A stretch of DNA of 64,000 nucleotides. Origin: Azolla caroliniana (taxonomy: Eukaryota; Plantae; Polypodiophyta). The translations under genes were made by a program, and so were the position numbers. The notes beneath the pieces are model-generated. The model saw only the letters and a list, made by a program, of their open reading frames with translations. It was not told the origin of the DNA and made no database searches. Positions 8,901 through 62,090 of the stretch are shown here, piece after piece (the first letter of the stretch is position 1; each line of letters begins with the position of its first letter). The DNA lies in contig JBHGNT010000006.1 in NCBI GenBank assembly GCA_043228905.1, forward strand, positions 8,990,001-9,054,000, in the 5' to 3' direction.

Positions 8901-11316
8901 AAGACAAATCTGAAAACATAGAAGACTGCCACAGAGATGGAAGCAAGGTTGGACAGTAAAGTCCAACATCAACAGAATGTTCTGGACCATCAAAAAGCTC
9001 AGATGGTAAATCTGATTCAAATTCTTGGAGTGGAAAAAGTGGAGGACACAAAAAATGTGATGATAAAAAAGGAAAACAGAAAATGCCAGAGTATGAAATG
9101 TTGGATGACTTGTCTAAAAACATGGAAGATGAGGATTCAGATGTGTCATTGGATGATCTTCTTGGTATAAGAGGATTGAAAATCCCTGGTATGGAAAAAG
9201 CATTGAAGGATGCAAATCAGAAACTGAGAAGATCAGATAGAGAGAAAAAGACTGTGGAAAGATTTGGGTATGATACATATATGGCTATGCACTATGCATA
9301 TATGTCTAAGGTGGTACAGATCCCTGACCCAAACAGCTTTGAAGAAGCAAAATCTGAGAAGAAATGGATGGATGCAATGCAAGAAGAGATTGATGCATTG
9401 GCTGAGAACAAAACGTGGGATTTAGTGAAGTTACCAAAAGAGAAAAATGTGGTAGGCTGCAAATGGGTCTACAAGACAAAGCATGACTCCAATGGGAATG
9501 TAAGTAGACATAAAGCAAGATTGGTTGCAAAAGGATATGCTCAGATGCAAGGGATTGATTATGATGAGACTTTTGCACCGGTTGCAAAGATGGCAACCTT
9601 GAGAACACTACTTGCTGTAGGAGCAGCCAGAAAATGGATTTTGCATCACATGGATGTAAAAAATGCTTTTTTACATGGTAACTTGGAAGAAGAAGTGTAT
9701 ATGAGTCAACCACCAGGTTTTGAAGATAAGAAACATCCTGATTATGTATGTAAGCTGAAAAAAGCTCTCTATGGACTGAAACAGGCACCAAGAGCATGGC
9801 ACAGAGAACTTTCAGATTCTCTGAAAAATCTTGGTTTCAAAATGTCAAAAGCTGATCCTTCTTTGTATGTAAAAAGTGAAAATGATTGCATTGTTATTAT
9901 TCTGATTTATGTAGATGATTTGATTATTGGAGGAGATTCCGTGGATGAAATAAGAAAGTTGGAAAAAAATCTGGAAATGCAGTTTCATATGAAAGATTTG
10001 GGAGATCTGAGATATTTTCTTGGTATTGAAATCATCAGATCTGAAAGTGGTATATGTATGTTGCAAAAACAGTATGCAACAACTATGTTGAAAAAGTATG
10101 GTATGCTTGGATGCAAACCTATTGCTGTACCACTTGATAAAAACTGCAAGTTGAGGGCTGATTTGGGAGCCAAGATAGAAGATGTAAACATGTACAGGTC
10201 TATGGTGGGCAGCCTTATTTATTTGACTATAACAAGACCTGATTTGAGCTATGCTGTTGGATTAGTCAGCCAGTTTATGCAACAGCCAACAAAGCCACAT
10301 TTGGACTGCATCAGAAGGATTCTGAGGTATGTAAAAGCAACTCAGAACTTTGGACTATTTTACAGGGCTGATCTAGACATAAATCTGGAAGGATATACAG
10401 ATGCTGATTGGGCTGGAAGCCAAACAAACAGGAGATCCACAAGTGGATACATGTTTACCTTGGGAAGTGCAGGAATTTCATGGAGTAGCAAGAAACAGGC
10501 TACTGTTGCATTGTCCAGTACAGAAGCTGAGTATAGAGCAGCATGGTGTGACAATATGAGCAGCATTCAACTTGCAAAGAACCCAGTGTTCCATGCAAGA
10601 ACAAAGCACATTGAGGTGCATTATCACTTTGTTAGAGAAAAAGTGATGGAAGGTGAAGTTGATCTGGTGTATGTGAATACAAATCAGCAGGTTGCTGATA
10701 TCCTTACGAAGGGATTGAGTGTGGAAAAACATACACAGTTTCGGAACATGATGGGAGTTGTAAACATTGATGAGATGGCTAAAAAAAAGCAAAATGGAAA
10801 AGAAGATTGAAGAGAACCTCAAGCAAGAATAAGTTGAGCTTGAGGGGGAGTGTTGAGAAGCAAGCTCAACATGGTATGTGATGCTTATGAGAAATAAGCT
10901 ATAGTAGCTATTTAGCTACTAGTGAACAAAAAGGTAAAACAACTATTTAGCTAGTGACAGCTAATTAGCTAGTGAACAGCTATTTAGCGACTGACAGCTA
11001 ATTAGCTACTGGCAGCTAATTAGCTGCATGTGTAATAACTTATGACTTAGGTAAAAGTAAGTGAGAGTGAATAGTAAGTAAGTAGTAAGAAAAAACAGAG
11101 AATAGTGAGTAGAGAACTCTGAGAGAGTGAGAGACCAGAAGACTGACGAGAGCAAGTTGAGCTCTACATGTAATAGAAGAAAACCATTTTGCTACTACAG
11201 AGGTAAGTCCCCTTTCCTTTCTCTGTCTGTTTAGAGCACGCTAACGATCCAGCACACTACGATCCGCCGCGCATACAAAAGAAGAGCCCGAGTGCCTTCT
11301 TCACGTTTTCTTAACA
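5949..11316 (+). mobile_element. Full-length young Ty1/Copia LTR retrotransposon (family A)
   Basis: LTRs 5949-6414 and 10851-11316 (466 bp, TG...CA, one mismatch seen); TSD ATTCT at 5944-5948 and 11317-11321; PBS TGGTATCAGAGC 6415-6426; PPT TGAGGGGGAG 10841-10850; domain order gag-PR-IN-RT-RH. Confidence 0.98.
6559..10810 (+). pseudogene. Copia gag-pol polyprotein, disrupted (frameshift ~7502-7507, TAA at 8957, RNase H deletion ~10540)
   Basis: Gag zinc knuckle [14 protein letters not shown]; protease [11 protein letters not shown]; integrase HKRIGH..CEAC, HTDVWGP, RSDGGGEY, NGVAERKNR; [14 protein letters not shown]; RNase [16 protein letters not shown]. Confidence 0.95.
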
Positions 11317-30691: not shown

Positions 30692-32567
30692 GAAAAAAGG
30701 CTAGGAAACCAAAAGAATTGATAACCCACTTGTACAATGCGTTATTACATTTGATCAATTCTGTTGAGAATTGTCTTGATAATAAAAAAAGAGGTGTGAA
30801 TGATAAGGTAAAACTCTTTTTAATTGTGTCATGTACCACAATATCCTAATGTGTCAAAATTCCACAAGTGTAGTTAGAATGAGACGTGGGTCAAGCTAAC
30901 CTTGTTTTCAGATTCTACGAAACATGAACCCTAGACTAAGACATTAGTGGGGCTAAGTAAAAGCCCAATGTTTGTACTTAGTGTTGGTCATGAAAGGGCA
31001 TGAAGCTTCACAATGTATATAAAACTAAGACTTCGATTGTGTTTTATTGAAGCTATGAGTTTGTTTTTTGGTGCTGAGTACGTTGGCTTGAAAGATATAG
31101 CTATGCCACTATGTTGTAGATTTGGAATTTGTTGATGATATAGGTCTAGTATACTCATACAAGCCTATTAGAACCTCAAATTCACATGGAGTATATTTAT
31201 TAGAGGAATTTGTGTAGTACTTGTGCATGTGCATGTGACCCACAAGAACCCATTTTGAAGTGAAGGATCATGGATGATAAATGCAACAACTTGGACTTTA
31301 GCGTAATGGGGAATGGCTTTTGTGTGGTTTCATTCATTCAAAGGGCAAAAAATTGCAGTTTTCTCATAGCAATTCCAAACATACGCTTGTAGAAATTTAC
31401 TTACGTATGGTTGTGATGCATCAAGGATATCTCACGCAAATCACAATTTTAACAAATCTTCTCTTCATAAATTATGCACTCTTGAATCCTACAAAGTGTT
31501 CTAACTGTAATTAAAATGGCATTTATGGATGTTGATAATCTATTATTTGATGGGACATGTTTGTGTAGGCATGATATGCTGGAATAAGTTTATTAACTTT
31601 TGTCAAATGATGCTTAAGAATTTGATTTAATCATAGCATCACCTTTTATGAAAAGGTGATGCTATGATCAAATCAAATTCTTCATTGTTTCACATTTATG
31701 ATCATTTCAAAACCAAATACTTCATTGTTTGACACAAGCAAGTTTGATAGTAGTTTTACTTTATAACAATATTCCTGGAAGTATGCTTGTTTCATTCATC
31801 AATCAAATACGTCATTGTTTGAAATTAATGAATTTTCAAACCACATTATTCAAAAATACTCAAGAGGTCAAAGATTAAAAAGTTACATGGAAGTGTTTAA
31901 ACGCTCTTCAAGTTATGAGTATTTTTCAACAATCAATTGTCATTTGGATGATCCATGGTGCACAAGAAAAGTTCTTCAATCATTGACAACCTTGCCCTTG
32001 AGTTGAAGCTTGTAGAAAACCACCTAACAAATAATACGGACTGAAACCTCAGTCCATGTGTTGGTACACATACATAAACAAATCATCATTATGTTTGTCT
32101 TATTGTATTACATTCAAATTCAATCAACATACTTGTGAACCCTCCGTTCTATCTAGGCAATCATTGTTGCATTCTCAATTAGTTGATATTTTGGACAATT
32201 TGTTCATGTGCTTGATTGATGGAATACATTCTATGAAATGTATCTTTTGTCAAAGGAAGAAGAGAACATACGCGCGGCATGATGTAAATTTTTCTTGTCA
32301 CATAAATAGGTTTGTCTTCTATGAACATCATAATATTGGTTTCGCAGCATCTTCATATGAATAACCTCTCAAATTAGACACAAACGCATTTGGAATATTA
32401 GTCAACAATTATGATATTTGCAAATATGATTATGAGTTTGATTCCATGTACACTGGTCTTCCCAACATAGGTTCACAATAGTATAGGGTCATATATATAC
32501 ATATATACATATATTAAGAATTTTAGAGCCCACTTCTTTCCCCATATCAAATCAAAACATACCATTC

Positions 32568-35500
32568 CTACAACTTTATTGTACATACGGCAGCCCAAGG
32601 AAGTCTAGAAGGATGAGATAGACGAGGTTGTGTGCATACATGCCTCCAGACCTTCTTCTTTGGATGATAAACTTGAAAGAATTGAGAATGTTTCCTCCCA
32701 CGAGCAATGCAACCTTGCGATTGATTAAAAGATAGAACAAACAACTCACCATCCAGGGCCACTAGCCTGCACAATGAATTCGTGGGAATCTTCCGCGGTA
32801 CTACTGACTCACGAATCCAGATATTTGAAAGGACATTGTACCTTGCGAAGTTAATAAATGCCAAACAAATCAGAACTCGTTGCCAAACAAAACACATGAA
32901 AATTTCAACTTGGGGACAGAATCCATGCATAAAAAATTCAGAAAATGTTACATGTTTTGAGTCTTCACGCAAGGACAATTGGAAGAAAGCAAGATGCTTG
33001 TTGGCAGTGGGTTTAGTGGATGTATTCAACTGTGACATACCAGAGAGAACACAAGAATGGTTATGGATGGCTATCTATGCATGACCCACCCCAAAAAAGC
33101 ATGAGTTTTCAAAAACTCATCAAATAATAACAATTTGCAGGTAATTGAGATTGAGACTCAAGTTTGAGCATCATTGCTGAAGACAATGCACTATAAAAAA
33201 ATATTAACACATTGAAATTGCAAAAGCAGAGTTCCAAAAACTCATCATCAAAGTGAAGTGACGGGCAAGGAATGAGATTGACATTTAATCATTGGAGCCA
33301 AATTATTTCAAAAAATTTGTGCATTTGGCCTACGTATCGCATTTGCAGCAAGCTGTTCAATTGCAAGTAGTATGGTGTTACGTCAATAAGAAATATGATA
33401 TTTTGCCTCTACGGCTTTTTGGGCAATTGATAAAACCTAGTTAAACCAGAAACTTAATATATTCATTTGCCTTCCAATATGTCAAATCCTCACAATGTTT
33501 CCTATTGAGATCTATATGAGTTCCACGCTCTATGTACCATAGCTCCCCCACAATCAGATCTTCAAGTTGAAGGTAGCTACGAGTACATTTTCATGGTTGT
33601 ACTCTTATTACATTGATCATTGTCTGTACTGCCAAATGAAGGTTTCTTAGATTTGACTTTATAACTTTCAAACTAGGTTTACTTGTTGGCGTGAAATTTT
33701 TTATTTGTAAATCAAATTTGTCTCCTGGGCCTGAAGTAAATAAAAATGCAGTTCTGCAGCAGCAAAGGGGGAGGAAGAAAGAATCGCATGGATACCTACA
33801 ATGGCCTTCTATAATCTTTGTAAATGCTTTGGCACCATTAGCATCAGCTAGGCAAGGATTGTGCCATTAGGCTTGTCTGCACACATAACTTCCACATTAG
33901 GGAGACGTCTAGTAGACTAACGTTGTACACACATACATTCCCATTAGTGAAGTTTCTAGTAGTCACACCATAGCCAGAATCTGATATAGGTTTCAGCATA
34001 CATTTGCCACCATTGCCCGAGTAAGCCTTCCGCAACATAATTTCCATTTAATGAGGTGTCTAATAATCACATCTGTATTCAGCATGTGACATAAGTATAA
34101 TCTTCTGATTTTAGGGCTTCAGCATACATTCATTCTCTTCTCTCCAAGGTATAATCTTAGAGCCAATCGGTGTTTCACATTTGTGTTATGTTTGCCGTTT
34201 CAATATTTTTGTTTTCCAAAGTGAACATCAATATGTTTGTGTTCTACCAATCTTCAAGCAAACTGACTATACCATTTCAAAGTTCATAGAGAGGTAGAAA
34301 ATAGAGTGGATTCATGCTCAAGATCATTGCTCATATTATCAGCATTTCTCTATATGCTACAGCAGTTTACATGTGCTATCTTCTCTCCTTTTGCTCCTTT
34401 TTTGTTCCTTCGGGCTATAAAACCCTCATTGTAGATAAAAAAAAGCGTCCTTGAGACTGTTTGATTTGTGTAGTGTATAACTAATTTTTTTCTCCCATGA
34501 ATTAGGCCTTAAAAGTCCTTCCCAGAGATAATATTTTTCAAAGAAAGGTGGATTTAAACAACCATTCTAATTATCTTTTGCTTTAGAGAGTAGAAACTGA
34601 AAATGCCAAAGAGGTTTCAAAGCTTCTCAGATGGATTTTGCAAATTGTCATAATCCTTACGTGACATAGGAATGCATATTTAGGTATTAGATGATCTAGA
34701 AGGATACTGACAGTGATACTCAAAGATTGAGATAGCAATTGTATATAAATAGCCTGAATATTGACAAAAGAAAGTGAAAATAGTGTTACTTCAAAAATTC
34801 AGACATTACAAAAGTGTACCTGAAGATAACAGAGCCATCGAGCATGAAAATGCTAGTCCCTGACGAATCATCCTCTGAATGGACTACAGCAACTTTACCT
34901 AGTCGTCTTCTTTCTCCTTCTTCCCACATGGGCTGCAAATATCTCCATGTGCCTGTCTTTAGATCTAAAATCTCACCATCCCTGTAATGCTCGTCTGTAG
35001 GCAGAACACCAGCAATTGTTCCTGGCCTTCCATAGCCACCAATCACCCAAAATTCGCCTTCCAAAATAAAACCCACACAGCCTGCCCTAATGTTCTTCAA
35101 ACCCTCAACGAAATGCCATCTATCATTCTTCATATCATACTTCTCTGCTGCAGATATTCTATTCCCCTCAGCAGGAAATTGTTCATGTCTAGACCCACCT
35201 CCAGCGACGATAATGCAATCCTCATCGTAGACTCCACAAGCAAAGCTCCCCCTAGGCACTCTCATGTTTGAGAGTCTCTCCCAACAACTACGGGATGGGT
35301 CATACTTGAAAACCTTTGATGATGCCAAGGGCTTATCGATGGGAAAACTTCTTGCATCAAAGAGAGATCCTCCAATGACTAAAAGACTGGAATCAACTGC
35401 TATACAATGGAAGTTGGTAAGGCCGTAAGTGGATGGATCACAAGGCATGGGGGGTACCAAAGCCCAAGCTTCGCTTCTCGGATCGAATATCTCACCACAA

Positions 35501-35775
35501 GTGAGTGATGGATCATCTCTGAAAATGCACAAAAAATCCTCCACCTTCTTCCACTTTCGACGAGTGTCTAGAAGGCGTCGAGATGAGAATGCAGAATGCC
35601 ATGCTTTGCTCACAACCTTCAATCTACCATGGTGGCATAGTGGCACAAAAGCCAAACAAAGGTGTGCTAAATCATTAGGAAGACCTGGAAAAATGCTATT
35701 GTGATCCTCAAAGACTACTGTTGCTGAATCATTAGATGTATTAGAGGTCTTCTGGCAGCTTGAGAGATCTCTCAT
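32568..35775 (-). CDS. F-box/kelch-repeat protein (OR23-like), coding exons 35775-34820 and 32841-32568
   Basis: F-box IFPGLPNDLAHLCLAFVP; kelch repeats with VIGGSLFDARSFPIDKP, PRGSFAC, VAGGGSRH, FWVIGGYG; AG|GTACAC and AAG|G junction restores R-YN. Confidence 0.9.
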
Positions 35776-35784
35776 GTCCTTCTG

Positions 35785-36705
35785 CTAGGGATATATACAT
35801 ACGCTGATGTGTACTTTTTTTATGCCTGTATCATTATACAAAACCAAATAAACCCTCGAGTACATGTGGTTTTTTAGCTCTGTATCAAAACAAAAGCCTA
35901 ATACACCATCTACTATGGATGTATTTTTTGAGTTCTTAATCAATACAAAAAACAAATGAACTCTCTGCGAGGATCAAATAAGCTCCCTGCTGATGCACAA
36001 ATCTCATTGAATATGTGAGCTTTTGTAGCTCTCGATCAAATCCAAAAACCAAATACACGTTCCACAAGGTTGCGAACCTCATGGCATGTGTGCTTTTTTA
36101 GCTCTGTATCAATGCAAGAAACCGAATACACTCTACGCTGGACTAGGCCTCTTAAACAGTTGAATATGTGTATTGGTATAAGCTCGTGATTGATACAAAA
36201 ACCAAATAAAACCATCTACTAGGGGCTATATATACAGATCTCTTTGAGTGTGTCCTATTCTAGCTCTGTGCCAACACGAGAAACTAAACAATCTCACAGC
36301 CACGGTTGAATATCTACATATCTCTTGAATAAGTGGCTTTCTGAGCTATGTATCGACATAAATAGAAAAATAAAAACAACCAAAATACCTGACCCCAACA
36401 TGCTTGGAAGAGAATAAAATAATGCCAATCCTAGCCCTAAAATACCCAGAGAAAAACCCAAACAAAACCCTAAAAAAAGGCAGAGAATTATGCAGGAATG
36501 GAGAAGCTTTGGATAAAAGAGAATACCTGCGGCAGAGGACAAGGGTCGATTTGTCTCCCGAAAGTTTCTTCCTTTCTTTTTCTTTTTTCTGCGTCCCACC
36601 CACCCGTGCACGCACGCACAGACACAGACACAGACACACAGAGGGAGAGAGAGATCATTTGGACGCTTTCACACTCTCATGGCCATTTCGTTCCTCCCTA
36701 GCGAC
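35785..36705 (-). promoter_or_regulatory. Promoter, non-coding exon 1 and 5'-UTR intron (~36526-35785) of the F-box/kelch gene
   Basis: CT/GT-rich leader, GCAG|GTATTC donor at 36526, TAGCAG acceptor 6-9 nt before the ATG, telo-box AAACCCTAA at ~36465, degenerate repeat array in the intron. Confidence 0.65.
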
Positions 36706-38734
36706 ACACCCCCAAGTGTCATGGGCCATATGGCCATCCCTCCCCTAAGGGATGGACAACTGTCTTCGACTCCAGATGTGGCGAGTGTCTCGTTCGTAAC
36801 GCAATCAAGGGGCAGTTAGAAGAGTCCGAATATATTCTTTCCTATGCAAACCCGATTTATGCCTCTCTTATCCATCCCCGATTTGTAATCTCGGTACCTT
36901 TTGATCGCAATGATGTACGGTTGGACAATTGACAAACTCGGAGAACTCGAGTTACACGGAATAATTCTTTGCTTTCATCAAGTGCATAGTAATAGGGGTG
37001 TTGGCATTACACCAACTCTTGACTTTATATGAGTCCTTTTCCAATTGTTCGAGTATTCTCGAATAATCAATTCTCTAGCAGTCAGTACGATGGCACCTAC
37101 CTATCGAGGTATGACTATTATCCATGCATACAGTGGCTTATGGGTTGTATAGCCCTTTGCCTAAAACATATAAACATGCATAGAGCATTGTCATTAACCA
37201 TGTATTTAAGGGTAGGGAGGATAATGGATGTCGCGTCAAAGTAAGTGAATAAGAGAGTTGTTATGGTTAGTTGTAGTAGAGTTGGTTGCTTTTGATGAGA
37301 ACTAAAGAAAATTCCCCTTTTTGTGTTTTGAAGACATGTTTGAAAGGCAAGTTCTTCGTCATGTCCACAAAAACATTATTCCTTTTCCCTTAGTGCCTTG
37401 TGTCCAACCATCACCTTATTGTTATTGTTACCCTATACACCATTAGTATCACCATTACAACATTGTTGTCATCATTCTAGCATTTGTCACTCTCATTATT
37501 ATCATTGTCACAATGGTTTTGGTTGTGATGCTCCATCCTCACAATATAGCATGTAGGCCAATCATTAATTGTCATTTGTTTTCTTTGTCCATACATCACG
37601 TCGTCTAATGGTGTGAGATGTCTAATGATCTTAGGTTATAGGTTAGTTAGGTAAGACCAAATTGAATGACACGAGGTAAACCCTCCAAACTTACCCATAG
37701 AGTAACCTCTCTTATATACACATTGGCCTGGAACATGCTTGCTGAATAGTGGAAAAGGACTTGCAATACATATATCAAGGATGGTTGTTTATGGGTTGAT
37801 GCGTACTCAAGAAAAATTCTATCTAAGGTTTATTTGAGATATCAATTACAATTGCATAAGGAGTCATGTGTTGAAGGTTAATTGAAAGTTTTGTATAAAC
37901 CTGCTCATGTGGTAGTAGGAAAGGGAATATGATACAGATGAAGGGTTGGGTGTGATTACTTGTGGATGGATGCTTATCCATGATGACTTGCATCTTAAAT
38001 TTTCATGAGATATAGATTGCAAATGCACAAGGAGTCATGAAGGAGCATCGAGTATTGATGAAGCTTAATTGAAAGCATTAGTTGTGACTCAAGAAGCAAA
38101 CAAAATTTGCCCAAATTACATATTAGGTAGTATGGAGAAACCAATGAGTTATTGAAAGGAATACAAAAAATGGAGTGTTGACATTTAGATTGTCAACACC
38201 ACACCATGAGAGTTTTCCAATTTCATGTACAATGTCACGTTGTGGGCCTCTCGATCAAGGAAATGGAACTTTTCTCCAGCCTTAGTTTTAATGAATGGAA
38301 CGATGCGGCCCGCCTCGTTTTACCCGCAACAAGTGACTGTGTGCTTGCCTCATATACATTCAAAAAGACCCGCTTTACGTGCGGGGTCTCCTCTGGAAGG
38401 TGTGGTGGGGCAGGTAACTTTGGCCGAAGTTGTCATACATCCCCGATTCCGATTCCGATTCCGATTCCGCATCTGCTCTTTGCGGTAGAATGATGGCACC
38501 TTAGCAAGGTGGTTTCCCTTTAGTAGCAAGTAAGCTCTTAATAGTAGTAGTAGCAACACCAACATTACTTTTGTGTGTGCAGTGTGCACTATGAGCGTGT
38601 GTTGGGGGGGGGGGACATAAATGTAATAAAAATATATAATACATACAAACTACACTGACTTAAGAGTGTGTGAGGAAAACGCTGGTTTTTCGATTTTATA
38701 TGTATTTTTGGTGCTTCTTCTTCTGAACGTGGCG

Positions 38735-51818: not shown

Positions 51819-54429
51819 AGAATTGGAGGTTTATACAAATACCTTTGCATTCTAGTTTCCTCCTGTGTGTTCAAATGCTAAAATTTTCTTTTAATGATAT
51901 GCAGGTCAGGTGTACCAGGCTGTTTTTAATCATATAGAGTAATGAGTCAAAATTCATTATTGCTTGTGTATTGAACGTTGTTTGATTGATCTTCATATCA
52001 ATTTTCTTTCTCTTACTTGTGTACCCATTTTTTTGATATTAGACTATGCATTTTATAATTACATGCTGCATGTTTAAGGATTTGCTTTTCATTGAAAGAA
52101 ACCCTGAAAGAAAAGCAGAGATGCATTCAAAACAAAATTGGTACCAGAAATAGTGAAGTATTATATTTCAATATTTCAGCTGAACTTTGCTGTGGCAATT
52201 CAACGGTTGCAAAACAATTGGTATGGGGCTCATTGCTGTCAGTGAGGATTATTTGATAAAAATAAGTTTCTTTGTAGAACTTAAAGGGTGTTCCTTTGTG
52301 GGATATGTTCTTTGACGGTAGGATTAATTTTGTATGTTAAAGGTAAATTGAGAGAAGAGGTAAGGACAATGTGCGTAAACTTCAATATGCTTAAGCTTCA
52401 GGATGCTCAGGATTAAATCACTTTCATAATTGGTAACAGACCAAAGAGAATGGGTGACATCCTAACTCTTAATTTTGATTGTGGAGTGATTTGTGATGTA
52501 AAACTCATTTCCTTATGTGTGGAATATGCTGCCCTGTCCCAAGTTAACTTTAGATGTCGCAATGTGTCACATGATTGATAGCTGCTCTCTTTCAGTTTAG
52601 TAATTTTCGTCAGCCTGACTTTCTTCAGAGTGGCAATGAAAAAATGCTCTTGGTTTGGATGTTGTGGCAACAGATATGCCCTTCAACGTAGGTATTTCTC
52701 TTTCTAGCATTTGAGCTTTTCTGAAACTTCTGCCCTCTTCTAGCTCAAATATGCTACATTTAATTTTGGCTAAAGTAAGTTTGGTTATTTGCTTAGGCCA
52801 CTCACAACTAGATACTTGAACCTTTTAAGTTGTCATTTGTTGTACTAAGACGAATATACAAGAACATAAGCCAACAAGGTGCTTTTAGATGTCTAAAAAA
52901 GGCAATTAATTCATGCATAATCATGCGGGCAGAACTTAATTTGATTATATTGTGAACGATATCATGCATCAGATCTAAGCATAACCGAAGAATTGGGGGT
53001 TGCAAATCAGGTTGTCCTTCGTGCTCCATAACTTTGCTTATGGCACAAAGTGAAGAAGTGAGGCTCACAAACCGGGGTTACCTCCATGCTCTACGCATGT
53101 TTAGAGCAATAATAATGTAAAGAGGACAATTAATTCATACATAAAACTGCATGTCCACATGATTATTCAAACTGGACATGATAAATGTGAGTAAGATATG
53201 ATGCATCGGATCCAAGGTAAACTAAAGAACCAAGGCACACAAATTCGTGTAAGCTCTATATTCCACAACTCCACTTTTTGGTTAGGGAACATAATGCTGG
53301 ATAAAAATTAGGATGAACAAAAGTATGATATATGTCAACTCTAGAACAAGCAAATTTGAAGTTATCACTTGTAAATTGTACTTACGTAAGAAAAATAAAC
53401 AAAAGATGATGCATGAGGTCTAAGGGAAACAAAAGAATTGAGGCACACAAATTGGTGTAAGCTCTATGCTACACAACTTCACTTTTTTCTTAGGCCACAT
53501 AACGATATATGTATAAAAATAAGACAAACAACAACATGATATATGTTATTTTACATGATATTCAAATAACAGCTCATTTTAAAGTTATCACTTGTAAATT
53601 GTACTTACATAAGAAAAACAAGGAAAGAAATTTGGAAATTTTGCCTCCTACCTATATTGGTACAGTTGTGCTATAAGTGTGTCATGAACAGTTATCACTT
53701 AGTTCACCATCAACTTTCGCAAATTGGTTGCATGTGCACAACAATTTCTATTTGATCCAGCTTATTCTCTTAACACATGTGATTTTACACACAAGAAAAC
53801 ATGCAATATTGGTAATGTATCAAATTATCATACTAGAGAAATCGTGGCATAATAGGGGTAGGAAAGGCAACACAAACCGTTCTTATCAAATGACAAGGTA
53901 ATGAACAAAAGACCATTCATATGGAACCTAAAAAACTGTCATTAAGTACATATTCATCATCAATTAGGCCTCTTCACCTGTGTGGGATAGAGACAGGTTT
54001 ATTCAATAAGCTTTAAGAATGAGCATTTACAGCAAAAATGTAGCTTGCAACACATACAAAAATATTTTGCATAACTGCTTGCTCCTATGTTATTCTGGAA
54101 TCTACATTTTTCATATCTATAGGAGAGTAAGGTAATAAATAGTGTTTAATGTAGATATAAGTAAAATAAATCTTGCAACCAGCTAGCCTTTGCACAAATT
54201 GGTTGAAGGAGCTGCAGCAACAACAATGAAACTATTAAAGTTGTCATCTATACACCTCTTGGGCATGCCAATTCACAACGTTGTTCTATCCTCCCCCCTG
54301 TGCTGGGTGAGCATGGAACCGAGGGCTATGGTTTAACGTATGATGATGAATCAAGGTAAAACATGGTTGCAACTTGCCAGATAGAGTGGGGAGGGTTCAA
54401 CACGAAAGAAGAGGAATGTGTTTTTTGTC

Positions 54430-54496
54430 TCGCTAGGGCCTTAGGGGGATTGGGTTGGGTTGGGTTGGGTGCCCATGACCGTGTGAAAGCGCCCAA

Positions 54497-54533
<37 letters not shown>

Positions 54534-55873
54534 TGTGCAGCAGCTTCAGTGCAGACGCAGGACTCAGGAGAAGAAAGAAAGAAACCTTTGGGAGACAAAT
54601 CCATTCTGCCGCTCTGCTACAGGTATTCCTTTTCCTTTTTGTAGCTTCTCTTTTTCTGCGTCGTTCTTTTTGGTTTGTAGGGTATGGTACTCTTTCTTTC
54701 TTTATTGGGGTTTGGTTCTGGTAATTTTATGGATGTTTTAGGGTTAGGACGGACCTGATTTTATTCTATTCCAAGCAATTAGGATCGGGTATTTTTTTTT
54801 TCTACTTTTGTCGGTACAGAGCTTAGATAGTTGGCCGTAGCAGTTACTTGATTTGGTTTCATGTATTGATACGGAGTTAGGAAAGCACATATTCAAAGAG
54901 ATCTTCTGTATATATTTGGCCCCGAGTAGAGGATTTATTTGGTTTTTGTATCTATGACCAGCTGAAAAAATACACATATTCAGCTTTTCAAGAGACCTGG
55001 CCCGACAAATCATCCCATATAAAACAAATCTTCCCCTTGGGAGATTTGGCGGTTAAATTATTCTCTCATAACCATCAGGTTCCTATAATAACACCCTTAT
55101 TTTGGTATTAATAATTTTTTGCTGATGCTGAGTGAGTATTATGGAAAAAGTCTTTTTCTATGATGGAAATCCAAATAAGGCATTCAACAGTATCCCATTA
55201 AAGATCAAGTCTCCCTGTTGGTTATAATCTTGTTACGTACACAAGCTTGACTTTCCATCTACATCCATGTAATGTGAGAGCACCTCTTATAATTGTTCTT
55301 GATCGTATTGGGTCAATCATTCCTCATTTAGCCATGCCTGATGATCCCCCAAGCCTAGCACCTAGGTGAGGCAACAAAGGTAGGTGTGGCAAATTTTCCC
55401 TTGGGGTTATTCTTTGTGCTCAAGTGGGCGATTTAGGTTGTTCAACTATGGGTCTCTGACCAATCCTCTCGTAATCACCACCAGTTGTCCTGATCATTTA
55501 TGGGGATCATTGGTAATCACCATTTTATTGTGAGCTACACTGGTTTAGGTCCTGGCATTCATGATCCGTGTGATGACTTTGGGATGTGGGGCCATGGTTC
55601 TTTCTATTCTCCTTTAAGGCGCTTCTGGTGGGGGTATGTATGGCACCACCTCTCCTGGGTTGGTGGCTGCACTGGTAGGCATTTGGAGTCACATCTTGGG
55701 CTTCTCAAGGATCGCATCAACGTTTCTTAAAAATTGTGGCTCATTTTTCTGTTTCCAGTTCCTTGGCTACACAGACATTCTGCCTTAATCCTTGTACCTG
55801 CCATAGACACAAAAAACGTGTGCTGGTTTTTGCATATATTGTACAAATTACATTAGTATAAAATGTTCCATCC

Positions 55874-55922
<49 letters not shown>

Positions 55923-56271
55923 GGATGCCCATAAACCTTAGGTGCCTTAACCTAGTTTGTTAACCCAACAATCTTAGATACCCATCTCTAATGAAAGGCA
56001 CTGGCCTCATGAAAATCTTTGGCCCTTATTCTCTTAATTCCCTTATATTCAAAGGTGTTCTTTTTGGGATGGTCTTAAATCCTTAAGCTCCCTTACACCA
56101 TTGATAGTGAAGGGAAGGGAATATGTCCACTGACATTTGTTTTGTATTTGTACATACAAACACCAAGTGGTTAGCATTGTTTTATTGGGCATTCACTTGT
56201 TTATGAGGGATTGGGAACTGTCACTTCGGAAGGCCTGTAAAGCATCTTAAAATTCATATACTGTTTTTCAG
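54430..56271 (+). promoter_or_regulatory. Promoter, non-coding exon 1 and 5'-UTR intron (54623-56271) of the COA3-like gene
   Basis: GCCCA site-II-like motifs, (CT)n leader, ACAG|GTATTC donor at 54623, TTTTTCAG acceptor 3 nt before the ATG. Confidence 0.65.
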
Positions 56272-56274
56272 CAA

Positions 56275-56478
56275 ATGACTGGTTTGAGACTTCCAAAGTT
56301 TTCCCGGATGCAAGTGAAGAACTTTGTGGTTGCAAGCAGCCTTACCATGTTTGTTGGAGGAGTATATCTATACACAATGAAGGCCGTAGGTGGGTCAGAT
56401 GAAATGGAGGTCGCAATAGAACAATTTGAGAAGGAAAAGTCTGTTAAATTACAGCAAGATACAGCTACTCAATCATAG
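56275..56478 (+). CDS. Cytochrome c oxidase assembly factor 3-like small mitochondrial protein (67 aa)
   Basis: KNFVVASSLTMFVGGVYLYTMKAVGGSDEMEVAIEQFE matches the plant COA3-family motif KNxVVAGxLxxFVxGVYxYTMxAVGGxDE; one TM helix plus a short coiled coil. Confidence 0.85.
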   Translation: MTGLRLPKFSRMQVKNFVVASSLTMFVGGVYLYTMKAVGGSDEMEVAIEQFEKEKSVKLQQDTATQS

Positions 56479-57350
56479 GGCGGAAAGTATTGGCACATGG
56501 TCTTTACTATCTTAATTAAGTTTAATGTGATGGAAAAGGGTGCTATAATCAAGTGAATATAATCCAGTGAAAAAGGCTACCTTGTTGCCTACTCTCTGGT
56601 TTCAAATATAGAGTCTTGCTCAGATTGCTGCAAAGGATGTGTCATTATTGATGTGAGAACCCATTCTCTATTCCAAATTCATTGTGCTGTTTTTTGGTTC
56701 ATATTTTGTAAAAGAAAAACAAATTTGGATATTCTAGTTGATGAACCTGATACACATGAAGTATGTATTAACTTTGATTAATAATTAACAAAAATAATAC
56801 AGAGAGAATTTGATGCGAGAGAAATTAAGTCTCTTTTCAAAGGATCAAATATATTCTTTTGGCAAAAGCAGTAATGTTAGATTGTATTTGAAGGGCAGTA
56901 ATTTTCAAGTTTGAGGAGGGGAGAGTATTGATTTAGAGTTTTATGCTAATGAGTGGTCTTCCCTATAGCGATACTGCATAAACAGTAGGATGATTGATGA
57001 GTTGATATGGAAGAACTTGAAAGTTGACACATGACAGTGAAAAAAAAGCTTCAATAACTAGAAATTTTACTTGTCTTTCTGTATTCAGATTGCTTTTTAT
57101 TTGAACCCCAATGGATTCTTTTCTGCTTCTGTGTTTTGAGTATATTTCTAAATGATATTATGGCAGAGAACTATTCATAGATTCACAAAAAAGTGAAAAG
57201 TGCAAATATATACCAATATAATCATAGGAATTTGCGAGAAAAGTAATGAACAGATAAGTACCAACCATCAAATTTTTTTCGCAAATACTCAGTTACAGAG
57301 GAATTGGAAATCAGAGCATCACTAATTCTTGCTGGGACTAATTAATAATT

Positions 57351-57663
57351 GGGAAAAGTTCCAGGATACCCTTGGAAGTTCGTCTATTTACCAGAATGCC
57401 CCTGGAAGTTCCAAATTTACCAAACTACCCCAATGTCCAAAAACTTACACCTAATAAAGTAATTAAACGCTCAAATCTGTGGTAAACAGGGTTAGTTTGG
57501 GTCCATTTCTTCCATCTTTGATAAATAGGGCTTGTTGTTTTGAGTGTATAATTACTTTATAAAGTGTAATTTTTTGGACATAGGGGTAGTTTGGTAAATT
57601 TGGAACTTCCAAGGGCATTTTGGTAAATAGACGAACTTCTAGGGGTATCCTTGTACGTTTCCC
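57351..57663. mobile_element. Mutator-like MITE (313 bp)
   Basis: ~125-bp TIRs starting GGGAAA and ending TTTCCC; perfect 9-bp TSD TTAATAATT at 57342-57350 and 57664-57672. Confidence 0.93.
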
Positions 57664-60195
57664 TTAATAATTTGACATCTATTTTTGCATAGTTATGTCC
57701 TTCATAGCATAATTAATCATAACTACATGCTACTTTTGTTTATAAATGAGATAGCTTTGATTTTTAAGTACTTGCAAGCGGTAGGAACTTTTTAATTATC
57801 AGTCAATGATCAAATTTTGATAATAATCAACTTTGTGAAAATGGATTGTTGATGTAATTTCCATGACTTTTTGACAAATTTCCATTATTATATTTGTATA
57901 TTGGTAATTCTTTCTAAATTGTAACTATTGAGACCCTAAAATTGTTTTTGTCTTACTTGGAGAGGGCTTTCACATTATTCTTGAATTCCACAAACCTAAA
58001 ATCTAGCATGTTAATCCATTTTGATCTTCTCTCTTGGCAAAAATACAGGTATTATAAGTGTTGTAAGAGCTTTGCTAGGAAGTTGTGTTTAATGCAATGA
58101 TGGCTAAAATGGTTGTCACTAAAAAAGATGAACCTTAATGAGTTTCAAATATGTAGTTTAGCACTAATACCATTCATCTATGCTATAACAAAATTAGGCC
58201 ATGCATATTTCAAAGCCAAGCAAACCTCAAATCAAGCACAATCTATGAGCCTTGTTCTTCTATTGCACCAAACAAACTTAAGTTTTTTATACTTCAATTT
58301 AGGGTTAACCAAGCCCAATCAACCTAGGGGAATTGGTTTCGGCAAGCACCCTTTCTTTGGTGTTGGTGATTCATGCCTCACAATGAATGTTGAAGCCATC
58401 CTCTACAAATAATTGAATGTTGTTGGATGATGATTTTTTTAGAGGAAAGATTTGCTAACACTTTGAAGGGATCTTGAAGGGTCTATTGACATTGAAAATT
58501 TGAGTTAGGGAGCAATAACCTAGAAGAGCTATATTTCTATGATCATTGGCTAAACAAGAATCTAGAATTGCTATATTTTTATGATCATTGACTGGACAAA
58601 GTTAGTAAAGCTTTTTCCTTAGCAAAGGAGGGATTCAAATCGATTTAGGATGTGATCAATGATCGGCATCTCTTGTTTAGCTTCAATTGCATAGCATGTT
58701 GCTATAGTCTTGGGCCACATCATTGACTCATATGAAATGAAGTGACAAAGTGGGTATAATTATTAGTATTTGTTCTCCCTTTAGACAAAGATTACAAGAT
58801 TCACGATTGGATATTGAAGAAAGGCAATATTTTTGTTCCAATGGACAAGTTTAAAACATGTCTAGTGTACAACTTGTTGCAACCCTCCTCGTAACTTCAA
58901 GAACATGTAAATGATATTGTTGTAGGTTAAAACTTCCAAAGATAGCCAACTTCATCGCATCATGCATGATATGCCAATTTCCAAGTTTTGGGAAATGCAT
59001 TTTATTTGGACATATTCAGTGTGGAATGTCAAACAATGACCTTTCCTTCGAATGGAGAAGATTTTGTGCACTTTTGACCATTTGGATGGCCCACATCTAC
59101 AGTCAAGTACATCCCACTTCAATTTTATCTTCTTTATTGTGAGTGCTTGTAAGCACTTGTGTTTTTAACACTTCGTACATTCCCTTTTCTTCTTTGTGGA
59201 TTTTCACCTTGCAAGTAATATAAATTTTACAATAAAAGACAAGAATTGGATTTGTTTGATGATAAATGAGTACAAATAACAATCAAGTGACCTTATGGTT
59301 ATGGAATCTTTACTAATATCCTTATATTAAATATGTCGACAATTAAAACTTGTGGTGTTGCCTTTTATGGTTAATGTAGCACATAGGTGACAATTCGTGT
59401 TGGGTATAAATAAGGATAACATTGGATGAAACTATGTTTACCAGTACAAAAGCTATTATGATTGTCGATGACTTTTTCAGACTTGTATTATGTACTATAA
59501 CCTTTTCTAATCACATTAAATTTTCATTTGAAAAGCAAAATATGTGGCACAATGTACAACTATTTTTGGCAATGCTTTGGGAGATATGTATGGCTGTTGT
59601 AGTGCAATAGTAGTTGAAATAGTTAAGCTTTTGTGTTGAAGTATCGTCTAAATTGCTTTAGACATAATATAAACCATTGTCAGCAAAAAATTTAAAAATT
59701 TAATAAAACATCGCACAATGTTGTAACTATGTTAATAGTGTAAAGGGGAAACTGGTTTTGATCCTAGCCAAAGTTTAAACATCCATTCACCTTTACATTT
59801 ATTGATATTTGTTACATATAACATTCTCCATATAGGTTGTTTGCACCAAAAGTGGATCATCATCAGATTGTATATAGTTTATATTAATTCAAGCAAGTAT
59901 GAGGTTAATAAATAACCTCTCTTGGGCATCAACCCAACTTTTACATGAAATGCACGAGTTAAACTTAAAAGTATCTATGGGTACATGTCATGCAGATAAA
60001 CAATTCATGTCTTACAAGCCCATGTAACAAATGATAACTTATCAATTATGTGACTGACAATTGATCTTGAGACCATAAATTAAATACTACTAAAAAATTC
60101 TTAAACCATATGCAATCTTGCATTCAACTACACCTCCATTAGCGTAGATCCTCACTAAGATTTATAAACCCATATGCAATGTGCCTATATGCAGT

Positions 60196-60295: not shown

Positions 60296-61784
60296 ACAAG
60301 TGAAGGTAGTTTTATAAAAGATAAATTTACTAGTTACTAAGATAATGTAATATACCCGTGTTCACTAGTAATATGCACAAATTTACTAAAACTTTAATCC
60401 ATGTTGGAACTTAAAGAGAAACACTTTTTTTCGCCTATATGATGGGTGGTGATTCTTTTACAACAAATCAATTCTCACATCCCAATATTATAGAACATGA
60501 GCATGTTGTCCATATACATTCTCTAAGCATGATTGCAATGGAGATATAACACCATACCTCTATACTCCCCACTCATGGAGTGTGGATCCAACATCTTTAA
60601 CTCTATTTTACCTTATGGCTTCCAATGTCCATGACTAATAAACCCTTTCATTTGGTACACAAACGTATATTCTCATATTCATATTCCTACCTAAATGAAA
60701 GCCTTTGGCCTCCAAGATTCTTGAGTTATATTGGCTTTAGCGATTATGTAAAACTTTGGTGTTACACTACTTTCATGACTACGATGATATTAATAACTAT
60801 TAATGCAAATGAGGATGAACGAGGGAATTTTTTTGTTTGTTTTGCTTGAAGCATTTTAAGTGAGAAAAGGATTTATCGAGAAACTATTCAAATTCCACAC
60901 ATAAAAAGTAACATATTAGTGCACATTTAAATATTCGAGAACCATTATTTCAATGATCCGTTGCTTTTGCATGACATAAGCTTACACTCTCTTCAATATG
61001 AGAGGGGGCATAGGGTGATTAACCAAGTTTCTGATCAAACATGCATGTTTTGCTCCGAACAAGGTTGGGATTTTACTTTTTGAGTATTCCATCATTTGCA
61101 ACTATACCATATCCTTGCACAACTTATCTCTCAATCTCAATTCCATAAGCCATATTTGACCTCTAAGAACTTGATAATAAACTCATCAAACATATCCCTC
61201 TCTTAAAATGTAGGTTAGTGAACATATTCATAATCAAACAAGTTGATTCTTCAAACACATTTGTGCAAATTTGCTTGTTTCAACGAGATGAGCATCCCAT
61301 CACATAGAACTATGTAGGTTTAAAACAATGCATGAGACTTTTATAATGCTAAGTGCAAGGTTTGATCAATTAGTTTGAATGTGACGTATAGATGAACATT
61401 ATGTTCCAATCTTTGCTCTACAAATACACCAAAACTACATAAAACATACAAAATTGTTGAAAGAGAAACAAATGTTGTTAAACTAGGGAATTAAGATTAT
61501 ATGAAAGTGTGAGGGATGGACAAGAAGAGTCCATTCAGTTTTTCAAATTCTGATTAGAAGATGCGCACTTTGCCAACGAAATGTGTCGGTAAAGAAGTCG
61601 ACACACGCAATTGAGCAAACAATAAAAGAAGAAACTTTACTAGGATTTGACATGTTTTAGGTTTTTATAGATTAGTGAGCCCCACATAAATGAATGTGTA
61701 CGTATATGTAATACTAATAGTATGTCTGTCTGTATGATTTTTTGCTCTGCATAAAAAAACTTTTGTGGGCGATTGCAGAAGACT

Positions 61785-62090
61785 ATGTACAAAGATAGAC
61801 AGAATGCTGTGTGGAGTGTTGGTTTCTTCTTGGTCCACATTATGTTGAGTAGATGTGGGAGCTATGGAAGGCTCTTAGAGCTACACCCATCAGATGAGAC
61901 TAGGGTTCGACATAATCATCATCATCATCATCATGTTCCTGTTTCATCATCACATGAATATGAATATATTCCAGCTCCATTCATGAAAAGCATTGACAGT
62001 CATGGCTTCTCCCACGAGATCCAACAACTTCACGACGCCGCGCCTGACAAAAGACTCGTCCCCTCTGGCCCTAACCCTCTTCATAACTGA
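61785..62090 (+). CDS. CLE (CLAVATA3/ESR-related) peptide precursor, CLE9/10-type
   Basis: Single exon of 101 aa with an N-terminal hydrophobic segment and the C-terminal 12-aa motif RLVPSGPNPLHN directly before the stop. Confidence 0.93.
   Translation: MYKDRQNAVWSVGFFLVHIMLSRCGSYGRLLELHPSDETRVRHNHHHHHHVPVSSSHEYEYIPAPFMKSIDSHGFSHEIQQLHDAAPDKRLVPSGPNPLHN

What the first reader, a model, noticed from the sequence alone, without database searches (positions are those of the whole stretch)
36145..55005. Two unrelated genes share one homologous promoter + non-coding exon + first-intron cassette
Seen: the reverse complement of ~36145-36705 (5' end of the F-box/kelch gene) aligns collinearly with ~54430-55005 (5' end of the COA3-like gene). 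Shared blocks in order: CGCTAGGG; CCATGA..GTGTGAAAGCG(T/C)CCAAAT(G/C)ATCTCTCTC; GACGCAG; AAGAAAC..T.GGGAGACAAATC; CTCTGC..CAG|GTATTC (same splice donor); then intronic CACA..TCAAAGAGATCT..GTATATAT..GCCCC.AGTAGA.G.TTTATTTGGTTTTTGTATC.AT.A...GCT...AATACACATATTCA.CT.TT.AAGAG.CCT.G.CC. The coding regions are unrelated, and in both genes the ATG sits a few nt after the intron acceptor. Inference: a ~550-bp portable expression cassette (TSS, UTR exon, donor, enhancer-like intron) was duplicated in inverted orientation and spliced onto a different coding exon. This is either promoter capture by a local inversion/duplication or a mobile promoter module. I saw no TIR, LTR or TSD around it.
Basis: partly seen in the sequence, partly recalled or inferred. 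Interest (0 to 1): 0.8.

Follow-up and report, generated by a model that had tools for sequence, protein, structure and literature searches.

The report
Fern gene borrows neighbour's first exon
In a fern, two unrelated genes 18 kb apart begin their spliced RNAs with copies of the same non-coding first exon and splice site, likely because the front end of an F-box gene was long ago copied backwards into a mitochondrial assembly-factor-like gene and likely replaced its own start, a known kind of event seen here with unusually clear anatomy.

Summary
The homology is real: about 560 bp, 77% identical over ungapped columns, score 392 against at most 51 in shuffles. Both donors are used. Spliced contigs join 36527 to the OR23-type F-box/kelch gene in 3 of 3 RNA-type runs, and 54622 to the COA3-like exon in 1 of 3 (an 8-nt end in a second agrees). 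The F-box acceptor seen is at 35826, 50 nt before the ATG. The block is mostly leader exon plus half an intron, with only about 35 nt shared upstream. The 'conserved blocks' are what uniform decay gives. No high-copy family, TIR or TSD was found; a related species carries both copies. The F-box intron holds eight acceptor-like repeat units (about 57% alike), and the last one supplies its working acceptor. The COA3 copy has only the first three (77% to their partners). So the array predates the copy and the F-box gene is the likely donor. Best reading: an old local inverted DNA duplication landed in COA3's leader intron and became its first exon. Closest known cases: rice OsRpl6-1 (same anatomy, but transposon-borne), rice rpl27, LRRC37, ITCH-ASIP. 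New member of a known kind.

The parts
36527..36708 (-). Copy A: non-coding first exon of the F-box/kelch (OR23-type) gene, with a CT/GT microsatellite, plus at most about 35 nt upstream; start site not mapped
   Evidence: 36527-36563 lies in spliced contigs; contig lengths imply 128-145 nt of exon; alignment
35826..36526 (-). F-box leader intron, 701 nt, GT..AG; 36526-36140 is shared with copy B
   Evidence: Joint 'skips 701, CT..AC' in X6, X8, X10
35790..36385 (-). Degenerate tandem array of eight units (A1-A8, 55-95 nt apart), each a T-rich tract plus a GATACAG-like core; the working acceptor (35826) lies inside unit A8, and weak similarity runs on to within a few nt of the ATG
   Evidence: (last part: score 35 only)
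32403..35825 (-). F-box/kelch exons 2 (35825-34820, ATG 35775) and 3 (32841 onward, stop 32568); 409 codons, no internal stop
   Evidence: Joint 'skips 1978' in X6; translation; Pfam; homologues
54426..54622 (+). Copy B: non-coding first exon now used by the COA3-like gene; start site not mapped
   Evidence: 54581-54622 lies in a spliced 508-nt contig; alignment
54623..55003 (+). Copy B: donor and 5' part of the intron, holding repeat units B1-B3 only; homology stops abruptly before A4
55004..56271 (+). Rest of the COA3-like intron, unrelated to the F-box intron; single-copy depth; likely COA3's own intron, possibly with a decayed insertion
   Evidence: score 31 vs shuffle max 44; no Pfam match better than E 0.075 in six frames; 55519-56271 shared with locus L001 at 89%
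56272..56737 (+). COA3-like coding exon (CDS 56275-56478, 67 aa) and 3' UTR
53860..54430 (.). Left flank of copy B: diverged fragment of a gene transcribed elsewhere (aligned 53860-54172; extension to about 54430 inferred); it abuts the cassette, so copy B has no F-box-like upstream region
   Evidence: contigs of 819-1103 nt with 12-29 differences and many gaps in 3 of 3 RNA-type runs; source not identified
38735..52078 (+). Intervening spliced gene (six exons, 175 codons; resembles GET1/WRB, recalled, no call confirms it) whose 10.2-kb third intron holds retroelement relics and makes up over half of the distance between the copies
   Evidence: contig pieces and loose ends; reading frame; sizes; exon-wise Pfam blank

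Best explanation
Two unrelated fern genes splice from copies of one non-coding first exon, likely because an old local DNA duplication copied the F-box gene's front end, inverted, into the COA3-like gene's leader intron, where it likely replaced that gene's own first exon. SHOWN: the homology and its limits; use of both donors in spliced contigs; an eight-unit acceptor-like array in the F-box intron whose last unit is the working acceptor; only three units in the copy; both copies present in a related species. INFERRED: the copy was DNA-based (it includes intron); the parent had all eight units, so the copy is the truncated one and the F-box gene the donor; the fusion needed no precision because both first exons are non-coding, so any breakpoint in COA3's leader intron gives a correct mRNA once the borrowed donor pairs with COA3's own acceptor; transcription starts in or just before the copied exon, from TATA-less elements inside it (CT-rich tract, leader intron; general plant knowledge, untested here). 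A short copy made by template switching or break repair, and a whole-gene inverted duplicate later fused to COA3 by deletion, cannot be told apart.
For: Homology far above chance. F-box joint 36527>35825 in 3 of 3 RNA-type runs from 3 studies, 35-38 nt on the short side; COA3 joint 54622>56272 in X6 with 39 nt on the short side, and X8's 8-nt loose end equals the end of exon 1; the DNA runs laid show neither joint. Array age: partner units A1/B1, A2/B2, A3/B3 average 77% identity, the ten pairs among A4-A8 average 57%, so A4-A8 did not expand after the copy. The F-box start codon region is shared with other ferns (MR[N/D]L in P0002, P0005, P0006), so the array abuts an ancestral start. An AG lies 2-3 nt before the COA3 ATG in L001 and in 3 of 3 distant plant loci printed (L002, L004, L005; 5 distant loci fetched), which fits COA3 owning its acceptor (no RNA for them). 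Low copy: depth 46-54 over copy B against 43-45 on neighbouring unique DNA and about 128,000 on a repeat at 57318-57785 (the tool warns that depth is no copy number). Relative G has an A-type contig (16 differences in 193 nt) and a contig whose loose ends match B, plus a B-type contig with 20 differences in 190 nt, so the event (K2P 0.24-0.35) is older than that split. The copies are 17.7 kb apart, 10.2 kb of it one retroelement-filled intron. No second COA3 contig of comparable depth in X1, so the borrowed exon likely serves the only copy.
Against: No outgroup shows the ancestral state: L001's contig ends before the cassette would be and no fern genome was available. The COA3 joint rests on one contig in one run; X14 (organism G) shows an unspliced B-type piece and no COA3 coding contig. 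All runs are contigs labelled 'RNA?' by guess; no start site is mapped. Reads were laid at 80% likeness, so family members as diverged as A is from B (77%) would show only as short pieces; table 8 was cut in both calls. Unit B2 is slightly closer to A4 (74%) than to its collinear partner A2 (68%). Loss of units from B by later deletion would mimic truncation. No junction signature survives.
Confidence: 0.68

Rival explanations
1. Same local duplication, opposite direction: the cassette was COA3's, was copied in front of the F-box coding exon, and a repeat unit was recruited as a new acceptor; COA3's copy later lost units 4-8.
For: The units look like cryptic acceptors and one is the F-box acceptor; the sequence right of 55003 has stop-riddled frames and differs in L001 left of 55519, so that intron has been rearranged; a weak unit-like stretch lies near 55815-55880.
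Against: Needs a breakpoint within a few nt of a conserved ATG, loss of the F-box gene's own 5' end, and separate loss of five units in B. The stretch near 55815 is not significant (score 31 vs shuffle max 44) and is not found by the unit profile.
Confidence: 0.15
2. An old, low-copy transposon (PIF/Harbinger- or Pack-type) carried exon, donor and half intron and inserted at both genes, as in rice OsRpl6-1.
For: The anatomy matches OsRpl6-1: homology starts just upstream of the cDNA end, keeps the GT and ends inside the intron (PMC2631504). B is flanked by a foreign gene fragment, as in Pack elements. Copies under 80% identity are poorly seen by the read-laying.
Against: No TIR or TSD. The right edge falls inside a tandem array that continues in A, so it is no element end there. 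Near single-copy depth; two cassette-type contigs among 8 listed of 10 laid in organism G; no further hit in the window beyond a low-complexity one at E 0.0013.
Confidence: 0.11
3. Both genes got the cassette from a third gene, now lost or elsewhere, or B is a relic of a duplicate F-box gene into which a COA3 copy moved while the original COA3 was lost.
For: The neighbouring gene shows a second diverged copy in X1, X8 and X10 while COA3 shows none, so COA3 may not sit at its ancestral place; no OR23 gene lies in the flanks of the 5 distant COA3 loci.
Against: No third cassette seen; no F-box coding remnant near B; the distant loci are too remote for synteny to mean much.
Confidence: 0.06

Closest known systems
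Rice OsRpl6-1 5'-UTR acquisition (PMC2631504; abstract, passages and section 15 read)
   Same: A nuclear gene for a mitochondrial protein has a non-coding first exon, GT donor and 5' half of the leader intron from a foreign source, joined within the intron to its own acceptor and coding exon.
   Different: In rice the segment is a dispersed PIF/Harbinger-like element with a 15-bp TIR and 3-bp TSD, on all chromosomes, and no second protein-coding gene was found using it. Here there are two copies 18 kb apart, no TIR/TSD, and both head intact unrelated genes.
Rice rpl27 'promoter shuffling' (Ueda et al. 2006, PMC1475478; not held, seen only as a reference title and second-hand passages)
   Same: Promoter/5'-UTR gained by chromosomal duplication and recombination, not by a transposon, at a gene for a mitochondrial protein.
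   Different: That gene came from the mitochondrial genome and a 7-nt junction repeat survives; here an established nuclear gene likely swapped its 5' end and no junction signature is left. Details of the rice donor gene were not seen.
Primate LRRC37 promoters from BPTF and DND1 (PMC3371713; abstract and opening paragraphs)
   Same: Segmental duplication copies the promoter region of an unrelated gene in front of another gene, where it is used.
   Different: Added alternative promoters in an expanding family; here apparently the only first exon of a gene seen as single copy, and far older by divergence.
ITCH-ASIP fusion by tandem duplication (quail, PMC6466734, abstract; human, PMC9771800, search listing)
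   Same: A neighbour's 5' region is spliced onto intact coding exons and a normal protein results.
   Different: Recent, large (71 kb in quail), direct-orientation mutant alleles that keep a normal copy; here about 0.56 kb survives, inverted, fixed across species.

Membership tests
Promoter / first-exon capture by duplication (LRRC37, rpl27, ITCH-ASIP type) | Homologous 5' non-coding region on two genes with unrelated coding sequence | tested here: met
Promoter / first-exon capture by duplication (LRRC37, rpl27, ITCH-ASIP type) | The copied exon is spliced to the recipient's coding exon in transcripts | tested here: met
   F-box 3 of 3 runs; COA3-like 1 of 3 runs plus an 8-nt end in a second; contigs only
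Promoter / first-exon capture by duplication (LRRC37, rpl27, ITCH-ASIP type) | Transcription starts at the homologous position and the copied DNA has promoter activity | not testable with these tools
   Contigs cannot show starts; lengths suggest the F-box start lies near the 5' edge of the block
Promoter / first-exon capture by duplication (LRRC37, rpl27, ITCH-ASIP type) | Outgroup shows donor with, and recipient without, the segment | tested here: inconclusive
   Organism G has both copies; L001 does not reach the cassette; direction rests on the array
PIF/Harbinger- or Pack-type transposon-borne 5' UTR (OsRpl6-1 type) | Terminal inverted repeats and target-site duplication | tested here: not met
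   Five end comparisons at chance level; the right edge lies inside a continuing array in copy A. Decay over this age could have erased them.
PIF/Harbinger- or Pack-type transposon-borne 5' UTR (OsRpl6-1 type) | Many dispersed copies | tested here: not met
Retroposed (processed) copy | Introns lost, poly(A) and TSD | tested here: not met
   The copy includes the donor and 381 nt of intron
COA3 (PF09813) | Pfam score at or above the curated cut-off | tested here: inconclusive
   25.9 bits vs 27, E 7.5e-6; a review table lists no Arabidopsis COA3 (PMC5877523, passages); hence 'COA3-like'

The most novel reading that the evidence does not exclude
The block is a self-sufficient, portable start module (core promoter inside the leader exon, donor, acceptor-repeat intron) with no transposon ends. 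It replaced the native start of the only COA3-like gene, has been kept across species, and further decayed copies head other unrelated genes in this fern, so that leader modules are swapped among housekeeping genes through their 5'-UTR introns.
Probability: 0.1. Interest if true: 0.7.

Novelty: new member of a known kind. Interest (0 to 1): 0.42.

Why it matters
It is a natural, fixed 5'-end swap between two intact unrelated plant genes, with transcript support on both sides and an internal marker (the repeat array) for direction. It shows that a leader intron lets a gene change its regulatory front end without touching the protein. Because copy B has a foreign gene fragment directly upstream, it offers a test of whether about 0.5 kb at and downstream of the start is enough to drive a plant housekeeping-type gene. 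The class of event is known (rice rpl6 and rpl27, LRRC37, ASIP); searches returned no fern case, but they cover only open-access full text.

Tried and rejected
No whole genome was available and L001 is not searchable as a record, so genome-wide copy number was judged only from laid contigs. No listed run is on record as RNA; 'RNA?' is the tool's guess, backed here by GT..AG joints. X14 shows no COA3 coding contig: a hole, not used as evidence. One large inverted duplication centred near 46 kb was considered because 42925-44023 and 49130-50231 are inverted at 78%; rejected, since these are copia-type relics with equally similar copies at 0.4-0.7 kb and 15-16 kb and the intervening gene is not mirrored. 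Selective conservation of blocks: rejected. Continuation of the array after 55800: not significant. The source of the gene fragment left of copy B and the nature of 55004-55870 and 36701-37300 were not identified: 1 of 15 frames gave a Pfam hit, at E 0.075; a homologue search limited to proteins of 152-2000 aa found none among 13 candidates. Exon-wise Pfam scan of the intervening gene and the ORF near 61.8 kb: 0 of 6. Sequence look-up in earlier findings: none. The bacterial promoter scan is irrelevant to a plant and found nothing. No TATA match upstream of either exon; one site II-like GGCCCA at 36727 in A only; one telo-box-like match in each intron (motif names partly recalled, site II from PMC5877523 passages). 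Ueda et al. 2006 could not be read; no supplements were opened, and the alignments in the OsRpl6 figures were not seen. PMC13317346 and PMC3395120 (passages) added no closer case.
Full report
Organism and setting. The window is from a fern: the F-box/kelch protein's closest named relatives are Adiantum capillus-veneris (71%) and Ceratopteris richardii (69%), and angiosperm hits are named F-box/kelch-repeat protein OR23. Gene order around the finding: receptor-kinase-like exons (+, to 30.7 kb; ORFs), OR23-type F-box gene (-), a six-exon gene (+, 38.7-52.1 kb), a foreign gene fragment, the COA3-like gene (+).

1. The observation. The reverse complement of 36140-36685 aligns with 54470-55003 at 382 of 499 ungapped columns; score 392 against mean 35 and max 51 in 200 dinucleotide shuffles, blastn E 8e-40. 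Leaving out the microsatellite part gives 326 against max 59 in 282 random window pieces. A 12-of-13 match adds the CGCTAGGG block. Nothing aligns further upstream (53 vs shuffle max 55) or between the remaining intron parts (31 vs 44). Identity is even along the block, 73-80%, K2P 0.24-0.35, and identical runs are no longer than random placement of the mismatches gives (longest 19 vs 17.2, P 0.30).

2. Both donors are used. For the F-box gene, 3 of 3 RNA-type runs from 3 studies hold a contig that skips 701 nt with CT..AC ends on the + strand: intron 36526-35826. For the COA3-like gene, run X6 has a 508-nt contig joining 54622 to 56272 (1649 nt, GT..AG; 39 nt on the short side; 2 differences from the window); X8's contig ends with 8 letters equal to the end of exon 1, too short to count as a bridge; X14 has no coding contig. 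The DNA runs laid (X1 on B, X18 on A) show neither joint. Caveats: all are assembled contigs, 'RNA' is the tool's guess, and starts cannot be read. Contig lengths imply 145 nt (X8) and 128 nt (X10) of F-box exon 1, i.e. to about 36670, so at most about 35 nt of the shared block lies upstream of transcribed sequence. It is a leader exon plus half intron, perhaps with the core promoter inside.

3. Copy number and age. In DNA run X1 the bins over copy B have depth 46-54, against 43-45 on neighbouring unique DNA and about 128,000 on a repeat 2.5 kb away; the small excess fits short pieces of copy A. In organism G's DNA, 10 records were laid on the F-box region and 8 are listed: one spans the F-box body, one is an A-type intron piece (16 differences in 193 nt), and one 1098-nt contig touches A over 41 nt with loose ends that match copy B. 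G's run X14 also has a B-type piece (20 differences in 190 nt). So G has both copies, and the duplication (about 23% divergence) is some two to three times older than the split from G (8-11%). The limit: sequences under 80% alike are laid only in short pieces, and depth is not a copy number. No terminal repeats or target-site duplication were found. A cassette profile finds no third copy in the window or in six fetched loci, apart from a low-complexity hit at E 0.0013.

4. Direction. The F-box intron holds a degenerate tandem array of eight units, each a T-rich tract and a GATACAG-like core, that is, an acceptor-like motif. The working acceptor is the AG in the eighth unit, and weak similarity runs on almost to the ATG (score 35), a start shared with other ferns. 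Copy B has units 1-3 only and stops at 55003. Partner units average 77% identity; the ten pairs among A4-A8 average 57%, and all A pairs 54%. Units 4-8 are thus older than the duplication, the parent had all eight, and B is the cut copy. One discordant value: B2 is 74% to A4 and 68% to A2. COA3's acceptor region has no likeness to the array; an AG lies 2-3 nt before the COA3 ATG also in L001 and in the 3 distant plant loci printed of 5 fetched, which fits an acceptor native to COA3, though no RNA backs those loci. B's left neighbour is a diverged piece of a gene transcribed elsewhere, so B looks like the patched locus. No outgroup was reached: L001 (COA3 96% identical) shares the intron from 55519 on, then diverges and ends.

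5. Mechanism. Most likely (0.68) a local DNA-level duplication, by template switching or break repair, or a whole-gene inverted duplicate later trimmed by deletion, put the F-box exon 1, donor and half intron upstream of COA3's acceptor. Both first exons being non-coding, any breakpoint in the intron gives an intact COA3 message; COA3's own first exon was lost or overwritten (none is seen in contigs). The copies are 17.7 kb apart, 10.2 kb of which is one retroelement-filled intron, so they were likely closer then. X1 shows one COA3 contig only, while the neighbouring gene has a second diverged copy, so the borrowed exon likely serves the only COA3-like gene. Rivals: reverse direction (0.15), an old transposon-borne cassette (0.11), a third source or a moved COA3 (0.06). 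Shown: homology, splicing, array structure, presence in G. Inferred: direction, mechanism, promoter sufficiency, any effect on expression.

6. What is known. Rice OsRpl6-1 has the same anatomy but is carried by a dispersed PIF/Harbinger-like element with TIR and TSD (PMC2631504); those two defining features are not met here. Rice rpl27 gained its promoter by chromosomal recombination (Ueda 2006, seen second-hand). LRRC37 took promoters from BPTF and DND1 by segmental duplication, and ITCH-ASIP fusions arise by tandem duplication. The finding works like these and belongs to the duplication-based class, with start site and outgroup tests still open. Searches gave no fern example.

7. Verdict. 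Real, transcript-supported, low-copy, old; a new member of a known kind, with one unusual detail (an intron made of tandem acceptor-like units that dates and orients the copy). Interest 0.42.

Noticed in passing
window 35790-36385 (-): All eight intron units resemble the 3' splice site, several keep the AG, yet 3 of 3 runs show only the last unit used; minor alternative acceptors would not show in contigs.
   Followed up: partly
window 35800 (-): The acceptor in use leaves an out-of-frame ATG 25 nt before the F-box start, opening a 19-codon frame that overlaps it; three more ATGs lie in exon 1 if it is transcribed that far. May dampen translation.
   Followed up: no
window 38735-52078 (+): Six-exon gene, 175 codons, with a 10.2-kb intron; resembles GET1/WRB (recalled, unconfirmed). 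A second copy about 92% alike appears in X1, X8 and X10, and in X14 a contig runs on through further exons to 53391.
   Followed up: partly
window 41332-41520 (+): U2 snRNA match, 74.8 bits, with a decayed 3' half, inside that intron; likely a pseudogene.
   Followed up: no
window 53860-54430: Diverged fragment of a well-represented transcript from elsewhere, directly abutting copy B; source gene unidentified.
   Followed up: partly
window 57318-57785: Very high-copy short repeat with internal inverted structure (depth about 128,000 in X1), absent from L001 at the same place (alignment gap 57348-57664): a recent MITE-like insertion downstream of COA3.
   Followed up: no
window 61755-62090 (+): ORF ending in a CLE-type peptide motif (motif recalled; Pfam blank), with a poly-His stretch.
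   Followed up: no
window 40047-40458: Exact-looking 210-bp tandem duplication (99.5%) inside an AT-rich element; recent event or assembly artefact.
   Followed up: no
window 5949-11316: Copia element with 466-bp LTRs 99.8% identical and long open frames: a very recent insertion.
   Followed up: no
window 36844-36885: Short piece of a high-copy repeat (depth 3,511 in X18) just upstream of copy A, so A's upstream region also holds decayed repeat DNA.
   Followed up: no
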